This document shows positions 29,800-37,760 of a DNA stretch of 64,000 nucleotides, piece by piece (the first letter of the stretch is position 1; each line of letters opens with the position of its first letter). The translations under genes and the position numbers were made by a program. The notes under the pieces were generated by a model. It was not told where the DNA came from. It saw nothing but the letters and a program-made list of their open reading frames with translations, and made no database searches. The DNA comes from the human T2T-CHM13v2.0 reference genome, Homo sapiens, in assembly GCF_009914755.1 (NCBI RefSeq), contig NC_060929.1, one strand, 5' to 3'.

Positions 29800-30790
29800 C
29801 TCCCCAAATTGTTATTGAATGTTCCCAGGTGCCCAAGCCCTGTGCCAATGCCTGGAGTCTGGGCAGAGCAGAGAGAGATGGCAGTCCCTCCTCTCATCGT
29901 GATTGTAAAGTGGAGGGAGAGACAGATATTAAGCAAATAATCGTGGTAAAAAATTATATAAACTTTGATAATTGTGCCAAAGGAATAGGATGTGATCCTG
30001 TGAGAACAAGTAATATGGAAACTCCCCAAGACTGTGTGCAATGGGGAAAGTGGAGGGGTAGGGGTGTGTGTGTGTGTGTGAGGAGTGAGCAACCTTTCCT
30101 GAGAACGTGAGCTAAAACCTAAAGGATGAGCTGAAGCTAACTAGATGGATGAAGGCCTGAGGAAAAGCAAGAGTTCCAAGTAGAGGGAACAGCATGTTAA
30201 AAAGCCATGAGTCAGAAGGAAGCAGGTAGCAGGAAACAGAGGAAAGTAAGGGAGCGAGGGGGTTAATTTCTGCAATAAAAGGCTTGGGAGGGCAAGCAGG
30301 GATGCCGACCTTGCTGATCCTAGAGGCCCAGTGCTACTCAGAGTGGTCTCTGTGTGGGGGCCGCACTCCAACTGTGAATTATAGACCTGTAGGGAGCTAG
30401 GCACAGAATGGAGAATAAGCTTTTAGTGCAACTTGACAGAGCAACTTTATGTCTGCTGAAGCTAGTATTTTGTATGTCTTTTTAATTCATTTTCAAGCAA
30501 TTCATTGTTATTTTACAACTTTTCAATTGTTTTCAACGGATTGGGGTCGAGGAAACCTGGTCGTTTACTCTAGAATTTGGTCTTTATTCAGAAGCCGTGG
30601 AATGATTTTGAATAGGGGGCATGACAGAATCATATGCTCAGTTTTGCAAGGCTGTTGTGGGCACAGCAGAAGGCCGGGAGGCAGCAAGGGGGCCAACCTA
30701 GGGGGTCTGGAGAGAGGAGGGTGCAGCTTAGGCCAGGGAGCTGGCTGAAAGGATGGAGAAACATGAATGGATTTAGGATTGGGCAGAACT
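29800..30790 (-). mobile_element. L2 interrupted by a hAT-Charlie MITE
   Basis: GTTATTGAATG...GTGCCAAGCCCTGTGC...GAGGGAACAGCATG...; resumes GGGGCATGACAGAATC after the MITE. Confidence 0.65.
30329..30590 (+). mobile_element. hAT-Charlie non-autonomous element (Charlie18a-like)
   Basis: Starts CAGTGCTACTCAGAGTG (Charlie terminus); internal GCAACTTGACAGAG..ACTTTATGTCTG..GTATTTTGTATGTC. Confidence 0.55.
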
Positions 30791-32319
30791 GACTTCTTTG
30801 GCAGGAATTTTTGTCAAGGCAGACAAAAGAGAACGGGAAAGAAGACTTTATTTAGAGAGAGCCTGGTGGGTTGGTAGTAGAAAGTTTTATTGCTGGCAGT
30901 ACAGAGGGGCCAACATTTCCCAGAAAGAAAGGTTCTCTTTCCCTCAATGGGCAAGAGAGCTGGGAGCACTTGTCTGGGTGAAGGAAGAAACAGGGAGCTG
31001 CCACCCATGACTCGTCCACAAGTGCTGGGTGCTGGGCCAGAGAAGGGCATTGGAGAGGTTTGACCCTTGACAGTGCTCACTAGCTCTCTACAACCTGCAG
31101 GTTCATATATAATGTGATTAGTGCTTCCTGGGGCATGTGGGCAAGTGAAGAGCTCAGTAGATTGAGTTGCCATGGTAGGGGAAGACCATGTCCCAAAAAA
31201 TAGGTTACTTTGTGTGAAGAGGGAACTCTACTCCAGTCCTTGCCAACAAAGCATCACCATTTTGACCTTTGTTTTGGATCCCAGGTGCTGTCTAGCAGTA
31301 GCCTAACCAAGCTTCAAGGATAGTTTGGCAGAGGAGAGGCAGACATGGTGGGGTGCACCTGAGTGAGCTGTTATTGGTGTTATCTGGGCCCCTAAAAGGC
31401 TCTAGAAGACTGGCTTCTTTTAAATATTTCTCAGTTAAGTACTGGTCCTTCTGTGAATTTTGCTGCATTTGAGATATTTCATTTATCAGCCACATTGCTG
31501 CAATAAATCAAATTTGCTCTGGTCATACTCTTTACCTAGTGGCAGTTGGAAAATGGATTCAGGTCTTTGTCAATTTAATCTCAGATCTGTTTTGCTGAAG
31601 GCAAAGCCAAGAGGGTGACAGAATCACAGGTCATTGCCACAATAGAAGGGTACTGGTCCTATCTGGTAGAAGTCAGAGGCAGTGGTTAGGTGGAAGGCAT
31701 GACCCTCTGTCCACACTTCTCCTATTCACAATGCCTTTACTCCTGTCAGGGCATGCGGATTTAATATGATAGAATTATGTATTATCAGTGCATAAAGACA
31801 TCTTAATGATTATCTATAGCTTAGGAATGGCAAAAACAAGGCATCCTTGCCATTACTTCCTTTTCTCTTTCAGGCAGATATCAAGAATTGATCCCCGTAT
31901 TCTATGTAGCCTCAGAATCCTTCTCAACACACCACTCCAAGCAGATACTACTGATCAGCTGGAGTTAGCATGTAATCTAAGGAGACTTACATTAGTTTCC
32001 TTGGACTGCTTTAATAAAGTACCACAAACCGAATGGCTTAAAGCAGCAAACCCTTTTCCTTTCACAGTGCTGGCAACTAGAAGTCCAAAATTGAGGTGTT
32101 AGCAGGGCCATGCCCTCTCCAAAAGGTCTAGGAAAGAATTCTTTTTTGCCTCTGAGTTTCTGTTGGTTGACATCAACCCTTGGTGTTCCTTGGCTTGTAG
32201 GTGCATTACTCCAGGCTCTGCCTCTGTCTTCATGTGGCCTCTTTCCCTATTTGTCTGTGCCCAAATTTGCTTCCTTTTATTAGGATACCAGTTACAGGAT
32301 TAGAATCCACCCTAGTTCA

Positions 32320-32478
32320 ATTGAATAGAGACTTGAACATGTCGAAAATTCATAAAATCGTACATGAAAATGATAATCTACATTTAGGATGGTGATGAAC
32401 TCCAGGGAAGAAAAAGAGGGATTGAAATTGAGAAGAGGTCCCCAGAGTGATTTGAATCTATTTGTAATCCATTACTGT
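32320..32478 (-). repeat. Inverted copy of 37331-37489
   Basis: Manual ungapped alignment: 151/159 identical to the reverse complement of 37331-37489. Confidence 0.95.
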
Positions 32479-32615
32479 GCCTAGCTCCCCACAGATCAAT
32501 AATTCACAGCTGGAGTACAGCCCCCCAACACAGACCACTCTGAGTAGCACTGGGCCTCTAGCATCAGCAAGGTCTGCATCCCTGCTTTTCCTCCCAAGCC
32601 TTGTGTTGCAGAAAT
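32475..32615 (-). repeat. Inverted copy of 30266-30406
   Basis: Manual ungapped alignment: 126/141 identical. Also visible as paralogous ORF-track peptides at 30141..30404(-) and 32477..32740(+). Confidence 0.95.
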
Positions 32616-32737
32616 CCACCCTAGTTTACCCTCATCTTAACTTGATTACATTTGCACATTTATCCCAGGTGAACAGACATTTTGGGGGGTACACTATTCA
32701 ACCCAGTATAAGACCCAGAGCTATCCAGATCCCATTC

Positions 32738-33842: not shown

Positions 33843-33889
33843 TTAGATAGTGTGGTCTTCAAAATTAGATAGTGTGGTCTTCAAAATTA
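33843..33889. repeat. Perfect 22-bp tandem duplication
   Basis: TTAGATAGTGTGGTCTTCAAAA x2 (33843-33864, 33865-33886) plus TTA. Confidence 0.95.
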
Positions 33890-36660: not shown

Positions 36661-36879
36661 GGTCATACTTTCACCATCAGGCACTACAGGGGGATTTGCA
36701 GTCTGCCCTTTTTTTTTTTTGTTTACACTATGCTATGGCACTGACCAGGCCTTCATAATTCCATGTTAGCATCTCCCTGTCTATGCAGGGCTGTTTGATC
36801 ACATCTCTCCTTGCACAAAAAACCTTCATTACTTTCAAACTAGAGTCCACGATCCTTATTATAAACACTGAAGATTTAA

Positions 36880-37190
<311 letters not shown>

Positions 37191-37204
37191 AACCCCATTC
37201 TTTT

Positions 37205-37760
37205 TTTAAAAATTTTTTTATAATAATATATTTCAAACATAAAGAATAATAACATGAGTACATATGTACCCCCAATTGACCTTTAACAGATTTAACATTT
37301 TGCTATATTTGTTTAATGCTTTTTAAATAAACAGTAATGGATTACAAATAGATTCAAATCACTCTGGGGACCTCTTCTCAATTTCATTCCCTCCTTTTCT
37401 TCCTTGGAGTTCATCACCATCCTAAATGTAGGTTATCATTTTCATGTACGACTTTATGAATTTTTTGCATGTTCAAGTCTCTATTCAATGCATAGTATTG
37501 CTTTGCATATTTGTAAACTTTATAGAAATACTGCCCTACTATACATATCCTTTTGCAGTCTCCCTTTTGCATTGAACATTATTTTTGAGATTTATTCACA
37601 CTGGTATGTGTAGATCTAGTATATATTCATTTTATCCGCCATATAGTGTTTTATTCATCTATCTCTGATTGATGGGTTTTTCTTTTTCTTTTTTTCTACC
37701 GTGAGCCCTGCAGCAGTGAGCATTCTTGTGCAAACCTTGGGGAGTATACGCAGGAGTGGA
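37205..37760 (-). mobile_element. Old L1M (L1MC/ME-like) 3' region; donor of the inverted copy at 32320
   Basis: TATTTCAAACATA...TTAACATTTTGC...TTTTTGAGATTTATTCA...TAGATCTAGT...TTCATTTT. Confidence 0.7.

What the first reader, a model, noticed from the sequence alone, without database searches (positions are those of the whole stretch)
32304..32626. Composite insert stitched from two inverted local templates (+5 kb and -2 kb): a fossil multi-step template switch
Seen: the MLT1C LTR is interrupted between two copies of AATCCACCCTAGTT (32304-32317 and 32613-32626). The insert is (A) 32320-32478, the reverse complement of 37331-37489 (151/159, no gaps), then (B) 32475-32615, the reverse complement of 30266-30406 (126/141, no gaps). 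A and B overlap by CTGT, inside a longer imperfect match (CCATTACTGT vs CCATT-CTGT). B overlaps the returning host by AAT. Two bases (32318-32319) are unassigned. B crosses the L2/Charlie junction at ~30329, and A is far closer to its neighbour than old L1M copies normally are to each other, so both were copied from this locus rather than transposed. There is no poly(A). Established: microhomology-joined, inverted, locally templated segments with a short flanking duplication are the signature of FoSTeS/MMBIR or polymerase-theta templated insertion. Inference: a three-switch event fixed long ago (5-11% divergence). Repeat annotation would hide it as unrelated fragments.
Basis: partly seen in the sequence, partly recalled or inferred. 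Interest (0 to 1): 0.8.

Follow-up and report, generated by a model that had tools for sequence, protein, structure and literature searches.

The report
Old patch copied from two neighbours
A 295-base patch inside an old repeat on human chromosome 5 was copied, backwards, from two unique stretches 2 and 5 kb away when a break was mended tens of millions of years ago; it is a clean example of a repair scar that is already described in print.

Summary
A 295-bp insert (32318-32612) sits between two perfect copies of a 14-mer. It consists of 2 unassigned bases, then a reverse-complement copy of 37331-37489 (151/159), then a reverse-complement copy of 30266-30406 (126/141). The two copies share CTGT inside a 10-of-11 imperfect match.

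A search of the whole T2T genome finds only the insert itself and these two local donors. Other copies of the flanking LTR family carry one copy of the 14-mer stretch and no insert. Donor A lies inside an older repeat that continues past its ends. There is no poly(A), no GT-AG at the A/B joint and no good L1 nick site.

The twofold difference in divergence between A and B disappears once base composition is allowed for, so one event is enough.

Best reading: one ancient DNA-templated break repair that copied two nearby templates. This is the "repair-mediated duplication" class of Pace et al. 2009, which lists 824 proximal cases, 20 of them chimeric. It overlaps mechanistically with FoSTeS/MMBIR. 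Serial switching and two-ended copying cannot be told apart here. Polymerase theta alone fits poorly. The locus is not in their table, probably because both donors are repeat-derived. It is a new member of a known kind, of modest interest. Dating by orthologues could not be done.

The parts
32000..32317 (.). Left part of the interrupted host repeat, a high-copy LTR-type family.
   Evidence: 1661 first-look candidates genome-wide, with 70-77% identity among the 37 scored hits to this flank; all 17 fetched copies align to it.
32304..32317 (.). Left copy of the 14-bp flanking duplication AATCCACCCTAGTT.
   Evidence: D20, 100% identity; in two uninterrupted family copies (L026, L029), both window copies align onto the same single stretch.
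32318..32319 (.). Two bases (CA) with no assigned template: either filler, or donor bases with a 1-nt insertion.
32320..32478 (+). Segment A, a reverse-complement copy of 37331-37489.
   Evidence: 151/159 without gaps. E 3e-64 in the whole-genome search.
32468..32478 (+). A/B joint. CTGT (32475-32478) is shared exactly by both donors. The full 11 nt match donor A exactly and donor B 10 of 11 with a 1-nt bulge.
32475..32615 (+). Segment B, a reverse-complement copy of 30266-30406. Its last 3 nt (AAT) are shared with the host.
   Evidence: 126/141 without gaps. E 4.4e-47 in the whole-genome search.
32613..32626 (.). Right copy of the 14-bp flanking duplication. Its first 9 nt resemble the sequence next to donor B in 7 of 9 positions.
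   Evidence: D20 and I2.
32627..32710 (.). Right part of the interrupted host repeat.
   Evidence: in 7 of 17 family copies it aligns next to the end of the left flank. One search shows this at base level for L026 and L029.
37331..37489 (-). Donor A, 4852 bp downstream of the insert, still in place inside an older repeat.
   Evidence: a chr3 family copy (L009) aligns over 37327-37620, and a chr15 copy (L007) over 37249-37612.
30266..30406 (-). Donor B, 2068 bp upstream of the insert, still in place. Imperfect similarity to the host continues to 30260.

Best explanation
A single ancient germline break or stalled-replication repair event at 32317/32318 in an old LTR was mended by DNA synthesis that copied two nearby chromosomal templates, each about 150 nt long.

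**What was copied.** Both pieces are copies of the + strand read backwards: first 37489 down to 37331, then 30406 down to 30266. The donors were left intact, so this was a conservative copy.

**Two sub-models fit.**
- (a) One growing 3' end switched template three times: host to A, A to B at the 10/11 match ending in CTGT, and B back to the host at AAT. It landed 14 nt behind its point of departure, which duplicated the 14-mer.
- (b) A staggered break left the 14-mer on both ends. The left end copied donor A. The right end primed at a 7/9 match beside donor B and copied it. The two new strands then annealed at the 10/11 match.

**What is shown.** The anatomy, the uniqueness of the donors, the direction of copying and the lack of retrotransposition marks.

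**What is inferred.** The pathway, the single-event reading and the age. The age is about 35-40 million years from 8% divergence at the 2.2e-9 per year pairwise rate used by Pace et al. The two segments taken alone give a range of about 24-55 million years.
For: - **Anatomy.** Searches give the anatomy and identities. The homology ends sharply at each boundary.
- **Unique donors.**: 3 of 3 whole-genome candidates are self and the two local donors; with flanks added, the other hits were 4 (donor A) and 1 (donor B), each 55-150 nt long at 69-82% identity, against 95% and 88% for the insert.
- **Interrupted host repeat.**. The flanks belong to one high-copy family. 0 of 17 fetched copies contain the insert. 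In 7 of 17 the right flank aligns next to the left flank: offsets are 0-10 bp in six and 41 bp in one. The other 10 gave no right-flank hit. In L026 and L029 the two 14-mers map to one stretch.
- **Direction of copying.**: donor A sits inside a longer family alignment, so it is the source.
- **One age is enough.** One search gives differences of 8/155 for A and 15/134 for B (Fisher p=0.08). Per G/C-containing site this becomes 7/56 against 14/80 (p=0.48).
- **No retrotransposition marks.** No A or T run longer than 5. No GT-AG at the joint.
- **Literature.** Pace et al. 2009 (PMC2671141; abstract, sections 6-8, passages and Table S1 read) describe the same class:
  - insertions inside TEs copied from less than 5 kb away, mean length 162 bp;
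  - no poly(A) in 39 of 39 inspected cases;
  - microhomology plus target-site duplication in 5 of 39;
  - duplications of 4-21 nt;
  - 20 chimeric acceptors.
Against: - The host/A joint has no microhomology and carries 2 unassigned bases.
- A 14-bp flanking duplication is also what L1-type nicking gives.
- Uncorrected, B is about twice as diverged as A (p=0.08), and B has an unusual 7 transitions to 8 transversions.
- Both pieces could equally be copied from one + strand RNA. The sequence alone does not separate DNA from RNA templates.
- Sub-models (a) and (b) cannot be separated. Similarity at the B/host joint lies on both sides of the junction. The 7/9 primer match is not rare: 17 sites in 12.3 kb, of which 2 are the duplication itself.
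- A BLAST alignment of one family copy (L007) stops exactly at the donor A boundary, 37330. The gapped alignment runs on through A, but weakly.
- No orthologous empty site was seen, because no primate genomes are held.
Confidence: 0.72

Rival explanations
1. RNA-templated repair. A + strand RNA from this locus was reverse-transcribed from the broken top-strand 3' end. The window lies in an intron of LINC01933, which is on the + strand. The enzyme would have jumped 6.9 kb along the same RNA at the 10/11 match, and the cDNA end was then joined to the other break end at AAT. The enzyme could be L1 ORF2p or a cellular polymerase with reverse-transcriptase activity.
For: - Both pieces are complementary to the + strand and lie in 3'-to-5' order along it, as a single cDNA of one + strand RNA would (strand of LINC01933 from the hub annotation).
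- The 14-bp flanking duplication is in the range of L1-type insertions.
- RNA-derived patches at breaks are described. Onozawa and Aplan 2016 (PMC5110952; abstract and section 9 read).
- RNA-templated break repair in human cells is reported (PMC12065846, PMC10011834; search listing and abstract starts only).
Against: - There is no poly(A) or poly(T): runs reach 5 at most and none is at an end.
- Neither strand shows a good TTTT/A nick site at the duplication borders (context; the consensus is as quoted).
- The A/B joint is not a GT-AG splice.
- Pace et al. saw poly(A/T) in 0 of 39 proximal cases against 17 of 29 distant ones, and read the proximal class as DNA-templated.
- Nothing is known of germline transcription here at the time of the event.
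Confidence: 0.12
2. Two separate events. B was inserted first, with the 14-bp duplication. Later a second break at B's left edge was patched with a copy of A, joined to B by CTGT.
For: Raw divergence differs: 5.2% for A and 11.2% for B (p=0.08). Microhomology at the A/B joint would also be expected if A were joined to an already resident B.
Against: - Per G/C-containing site the two segments do not differ: 7/56 against 14/80, p=0.48. The segments are 34% and 54-56% G+C.
- A single perfect 14-bp duplication brackets the whole composite. There is no second set of junction scars.
- Two independent local, inverted captures at the same nucleotide would be needed.
- Chimeric single events are documented, 20 cases.
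Confidence: 0.1
3. Ordinary nested transposable-element fragments. A and B would be unrelated old repeat copies that landed here by transposition and merely resemble their neighbours.
For: Both donors lie in repeat-like sequence. Weak family hits exist for the donor A region.
Against: - The local donors match at 95% and 88-89%. Every other copy found in the genome matches at 69-82% over short stretches.
- Homology ends sharply at joints that share microhomology.
- No poly(A) and no terminal inverted repeats were reported.
Confidence: 0.03

Closest known systems
[quoted passage not shown]
   Same: - An insertion of at least 50 bp inside a TE, copied from a unique donor within 5 kb on the same chromosome.
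- Segment sizes of 159 and 141 nt, near their mean of 162 bp.
- No poly(A).
- Microhomology, filler and a short target-site duplication at the joints.
- A chimeric acceptor with two donors joined at microhomology.
- Divergence in the range of their older ("All primates" and catarrhine) cases.
   Different: - Not in their Table S1. None of the 20 MLT1C rows is at this locus, and there is no chr5 row at 151.0-152.8 Mb (the hg18 position is my rough estimate).
- The donors lie 6.9 kb apart on opposite sides of the acceptor. Their five all-local chimeras had donors 289-3432 bp apart.
- The main text gives no tally of donor orientation: the search terms found only one opposite-orientation example.
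FoSTeS/MMBIR templated insertions, for example the MMB-TIs of Osia et al., NAR 2021 (PMC8421209; abstract and passages read)
   Same: Inverted copies of nearby templates, microhomology or imperfect microhomology at switches, several templates in one event, and germline examples.
   Different: Their search signature uses templates within 100 bp and short inserts. Here the templates are 2 and 5 kb away and about 150 nt each. No copy-number change or larger rearrangement accompanies the insert. One of the three joints has filler instead of microhomology.
Polymerase theta (TMEJ) templated inserts: van Schendel et al., PLoS Genet 2016 (PMC5068794; passages read)
   Same: Template switching, reiterated priming, error-prone copying and reverse-complement inserts through fold-back.
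   Different: Those inserts are mostly under 25 bp (average about 10 bp), and about 85% are primed within 10 bp of the break, in C. elegans. Simple fold-back of each resected end on itself would also put B next to the left flank and A next to the right flank, which is the opposite of what is seen (inference).
Templated sequence insertion polymorphisms, class 1 (L1-mediated) and class 2: Onozawa and Aplan 2016 (PMC5110952)
   Same: A non-repeat-like patch inserted at a break. Class 1 shares the target-site duplication. Class 2 shares the microhomology and added bases.
   Different: Class 1 requires poly(A), a polyadenylation signal and a TTTT/A site, none of which is seen here. Class 2 lacks target-site duplications. 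Both come from distant loci through RNA, whereas these donors are local.

Membership tests
Repair-mediated duplication (Pace et al. 2009) | Insertion of at least 50 bp that interrupts one TE copy whose two parts are adjacent in the family | tested here: met
   The insert is 295 bp. In 7 of 17 family copies the two flanks are adjacent, and 0 of 17 hold the insert. L026 and L029 were checked at base level.
Repair-mediated duplication (Pace et al. 2009) | [quoted passage not shown] | tested here: met
   Whole-assembly search: each segment has exactly one other hit. The tool warns that its counts are lower bounds for repeats.
Repair-mediated duplication (Pace et al. 2009) | Donor on the same chromosome within 5 kb, and not tandem (more than 50 bp away) | tested here: met
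   4852 bp and 2068 bp lie between the arms.
Repair-mediated duplication (Pace et al. 2009) | No poly(A/T) tract of 5 bp or more at an end of the insert | tested here: met
   The ends read CAATTG... and ...TTGCAGA. The longest runs, A5 and T4, are internal.
Repair-mediated duplication (Pace et al. 2009) | Junction scars: microhomology, filler, deletion or a short target-site duplication | tested here: met
   CTGT within a 10/11 match, AAT, a 2-nt filler and a 14-bp duplication.
Repair-mediated duplication (Pace et al. 2009) | Empty orthologous site in an outgroup species | not testable with these tools
   No primate genomes other than the window's own assembly are held.
FoSTeS/MMBIR | Microhomology at every template switch | tested here: inconclusive
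   Present at 2 of 3 joints. The host/A joint has 2 unassigned bases and no clear microhomology.
FoSTeS/MMBIR | Replicative origin (collapsed fork, break-induced replication) | not testable with these tools
   No sequence feature separates it from two-ended synthesis-dependent strand annealing.
FoSTeS/MMBIR | Associated copy-number change or complex rearrangement | tested here: not met
   A simple insertion. Both donors are intact and collinear.
Polymerase theta templated insertion (TMEJ) | Short inserts (mostly under 25 bp) templated within about 10 bp of the break | tested here: not met
   Segments of 159 and 141 nt come from 2-5 kb away, against the figures read.
L1-mediated retrocopy / class 1 TSIP | Target-site duplication | tested here: met
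   14 bp, perfect.
L1-mediated retrocopy / class 1 TSIP | Poly(A) tail and polyadenylation signal at the 3' end | tested here: not met
   None at either end.
L1-mediated retrocopy / class 1 TSIP | Insertion at a TTTT/A-like nick site | tested here: not met
   The borders read GGATT/CTAAT on the bottom strand and TAGTT/TACCC on the top strand (context). Only a shifted GTTT/A would fit, and it needs an extra mismatch.
L1-mediated retrocopy / class 1 TSIP | If two-part, a joint at canonical splice sites | tested here: not met
   The only GT available within the overlap pairs with ...TTCT, not AG, at the acceptor side.

The most novel reading that the evidence does not exclude
The patch is a fossil of transcript-templated break repair. 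A nascent + strand RNA of the host lncRNA intron (LINC01933) served in cis as the template. A reverse-transcribing polymerase primed from the broken top strand and jumped 6.9 kb along the same RNA at a 10/11 match. If many local, inverted "repair-mediated duplications" prove to be complementary to the host transcript, the whole published class could be partly RNA-templated.
Probability: 0.1. Interest if true: 0.65.

Novelty: new member of a known kind. Interest (0 to 1): 0.27.

Why it matters
The locus itself has no annotated function. It lies deep in an intron of a lncRNA and away from the RefSeq enhancer and silencer marks.

Its value is as an unusually legible example of how breaks were patched in the primate germline. 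Both donors survive, all three joints can be read, and the whole genome contains no competing source.

It also points to a blind spot. Pipelines that discard insertions annotated as transposable-element fragments will miss repair copies whose donors are themselves repeat-derived. The published count of 824 proximal events is therefore likely a floor.

The strand logic (both pieces complementary to the + strand, in order) gives a simple genome-wide test of DNA against RNA templates.

Tried and rejected
- **Spliced antisense transcript.** The insert reads like a minus-strand stretch from 37489 to 30266 with 6.9 kb removed. I rejected a retrocopy of a spliced transcript because no GT-AG is possible within the 4-nt overlap and there is no poly(A).
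- **Fold-back of each resected end.** Rejected by reasoning: it predicts the order left flank-B...A-right flank, the opposite of the observed order.
- **Different ages for A and B.** The raw test gave p=0.08. After counting per G/C-containing site it gave p=0.48. 21 of the 23 differences lie at G/C sites.
- **Donor A boundary as a repeat boundary.** A BLAST hit to L007 ends exactly at 37330. A gapped alignment continues across the boundary, and L009 covers 37327-37620, so I did not take it as an element end.
- **The claimed L2/Charlie junction inside donor B (about 30329).** Not checkable. The genome search returned only 3 candidates for the 771-bp donor B region, and no repeat library is held.
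- **Pace et al. Table S1.** Searched for MLT1C (20 rows) and for coordinates beginning 1510-1527. No chr5 row fits. My hg18 position is a recalled rough offset.
- **Search for "short paired duplications/doublets".** The search gave only Pace et al. and unrelated single-cell papers.
- **Orthologue dating.** Not possible with the collections held.
Full report
**Observation**

- The 14-mer AATCCACCCTAGTT occurs twice, at 32304-32317 and 32613-32626, with 14/14 identity.
- Between the two copies lie 295 bp.
- An ungapped comparison gives 151/159 for 32320-32478 against the reverse complement of 37331-37489.
- The same comparison gives 126/141 for 32475-32615 against the reverse complement of 30266-30406.
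- In the 40 nt beyond each end, identity falls to 10/40 and 9/40 for A, and to 8/40 and 18/40 for B. The boundaries are therefore sharp.
- The somewhat raised value to the right of B lies in pyrimidine-rich sequence.

The two segments share CTGT. Gapped BLAST extends B back to 32468. The 11 nt at 32468-32478 therefore match donor A exactly and donor B in 10 of 11 positions with one bulged base. B and the returning host share AAT. Imperfect similarity runs on to 30260/32621 (I2). Bases 32318-32319 (CA) have no template, unless they are read as donor bases with a 1-nt insertion.

**More than chance, and local**

The held assembly is the whole 3.1-Gb T2T genome. A search with 32290-32640 returned three candidates, and all three were scored: the locus itself, donor A (E 3e-64, 95%) and donor B (E 4.4e-47, 88%).

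Searches with each donor plus its flanks found little more.
- For donor A: four other hits of 58-148 nt at 69-82% identity.
- For donor B: one other hit, a 55-nt stretch at 82%.

The tool warns that its counts are lower bounds for repeats. "No better copy exists" is therefore well supported, while "no weaker relatives exist" is not claimed.

In a self-BLAST of the window, A and B are the two most identical pairs of the 45 pairs of 60 nt or more that were listed (51 kept in all). By their coordinates, most of the other listed pairs join NCBI-masked stretches that I read as Alu-like. After pairs lying in the masked stretches were removed, A and B were the only pairs at 85% or more.

One perfect 14-mer pair somewhere in 9.5 kb is not rare in itself. 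I estimate about 0.2 expected by chance. What cannot be chance is its position, abutting both ends of the composite.

**The insert is the copy and the distant stretches are the sources**

The left flank, 32000-32317, belongs to a high-copy family: 1661 first-look candidates, with 70-77% identity among the 37 scored hits to this flank. I fetched 17 copies and aligned the left flank, the right flank and the insert to them separately.
- All 17 match the left flank.
- None of the 17 matches the insert.
- In 7 of 17 the right flank aligns directly after the left flank. Offsets from the expected position are 0-10 bp in six and 41 bp in one weak case.
- The other 10 gave no right-flank hit at the threshold. 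This fits the short, diverged end of the element.

At base level, both window copies of the 14-mer align onto one single stretch in L026 and in L029. The duplication therefore arose with the insertion.

Donor A lies inside an older repeat. A chr3 copy (L009) aligns over 37327-37620, and a chr15 copy (L007) over 37249-37612, past both ends of A. One caveat: the BLAST hit of L007 stops exactly at 37330, and its gapped alignment through A is weak.

**Not retrotransposition, not splicing**

The insert reads like the minus strand from 37489 to 30266 with 6.9 kb removed. I therefore tested whether it could be a retrocopy of a spliced antisense RNA.
- Within the 4-nt overlap, the only possible donor GT pairs with an acceptor ending in CT rather than AG.
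- The longest A run is 5 and the longest T run is 4, and neither is at an end.
- The borders of the duplication do not resemble the TTTT/A nick site of L1 on either strand (consensus as quoted).

**One event or two**

Differences are 8/155 in A (6 transitions, 2 transversions) and 15/134 in B (7 transitions, 8 transversions). Fisher's test gives p=0.08.

A is 34% G+C and B is 54-56%. Of the 23 differences, 21 lie at sites that are G or C in one of the two copies. Per such site the counts are 7/56 for A and 14/80 for B, p=0.48. At A/T-only sites they are 1/99 and 1/54. Composition therefore accounts for the gap, and one age suffices.

This does not exclude two events. However, a single perfect duplication brackets the composite, and there is no second set of scars.

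**Age**

Pooled divergence is 23/289, or 8.0%. At the 2.2e-9 per year donor-acceptor rate used by Pace et al., this is about 36-39 million years. The two segments taken alone give 24 and 55 million years.

Two effects would make the true age differ from this figure, in opposite directions.
- Error-prone synthesis at the event would make the true age younger than the estimate. Several differences are adjacent: 32342-32344, 32526-32527 and 32588-32589.
- Later gene conversion between the inverted copies would make the true age older than the estimate.

**Mechanism**

Both pieces are complementary to the + strand, and they follow each other in descending order along it. Two DNA readings fit.

(a) Serial switching. 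One 3' end leaves the host at 32317, copies the + strand at donor A, then moves to donor B, where its last 11 nt can pair in 10 positions. It returns to the host at AAT, 14 nt behind its point of departure.

(b) Two-ended copying, as proposed for the published chimeric cases. A staggered break leaves the 14-mer on both 3' ends. The left end copies A. The right end's last 9 nt pair 7/9 beside donor B, including the terminal ATT, and it copies B. The new strands then anneal at the 10/11 match.

I could not separate the two. Similarity at the B/host joint lies on both sides of the junction. The 7/9 primer match is also common: 17 sites in 12.3 kb, of which 2 are the duplication itself.

Simple fold-back of each resected end on its own strand is excluded, because it predicts the order B then A.

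Polymerase theta alone fits poorly. In the C. elegans study I read, its templated inserts were mostly under 25 bp and about 85% were primed within 10 bp of the break.

A + strand RNA would serve as a template just as well as + strand DNA, and the window lies in a + strand lncRNA intron. Nothing specific supports this, and the proximal class lacks poly(A) throughout (0 of 39). I give it about 0.1.

**Comparison with what is known**

Pace, Sen, Batzer and Feschotte (2009) searched the human genome for TEs interrupted by unique sequence. They reported the following.
- 1,136 duplications, of which 824 have a donor within 5 kb.
- Mean length 162 bp.
- Microhomology, filler, deletions, and in some cases target-site duplications of 4-21 nt.
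- 20 chimeric acceptors. In five of these both donors were local, 289-3432 bp apart.

Every definable feature of that class that I could test is met here. The locus is absent from their Table S1: none of the 20 MLT1C rows is at this locus, and there is no chr5 row at 151.0-152.8 Mb. My hg18 position is a rough recalled offset.

Their method removed insertions annotated as nested TEs. It also required a BLAST hit over 80% of the query. A two-donor, repeat-derived insert would fail both conditions.

MMBIR-type templated insertions with several inverted templates and microhomology are also described in germline DNA. Those were sought within 100 bp of the insertion and at shorter lengths.

**Verdict**

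The inference of a locally templated, microhomology-joined composite is supported. The specific "three-switch FoSTeS/MMBIR or polymerase theta" label is only partly supported.

The finding is a new, very clean member of a kind known since 2009. It has no annotated functional consequence. Its interest is modest: as a teaching example, as evidence that published counts are a floor, and as a prompt for a strand-bias test of RNA against DNA templates.

Noticed in passing
window 33843-33886: A perfect tandem duplication of a 22-nt unit, TTAGATAGTGTGGTCTTCAAAA x2 (D5). This looks like a young slippage-type duplication, unrelated to the insert.
   Followed up: no
window 30266-30406 / 32320-32615 / 37331-37489: The insertion created two interleaved inverted-repeat pairs in the + strand intron of LINC01933: donor B with segment B, and segment A with donor A. 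They are 141-159 nt long and 89-95% complementary. In the pre-RNA they could form long double-stranded stems with a crossing (pseudoknot-like) topology. No function is claimed.
   Followed up: no
window 32320-32612 against the donors: The differences are strongly composition-biased: 21 of 136 sites holding G or C differ, against 2 of 153 A/T-only sites. Segment B has 7 transitions to 8 transversions, which is unusual for neutral decay and might reflect copying errors at the event.
   Followed up: partly
window 36877-37240: An NCBI-masked stretch that I read as Alu-like lies 90 bp from donor A. It begins with a T-run followed by GAGATGGAGTCTC and matches other masked stretches of the window at 82-88%. 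It is not part of the copied segment.
   Followed up: no
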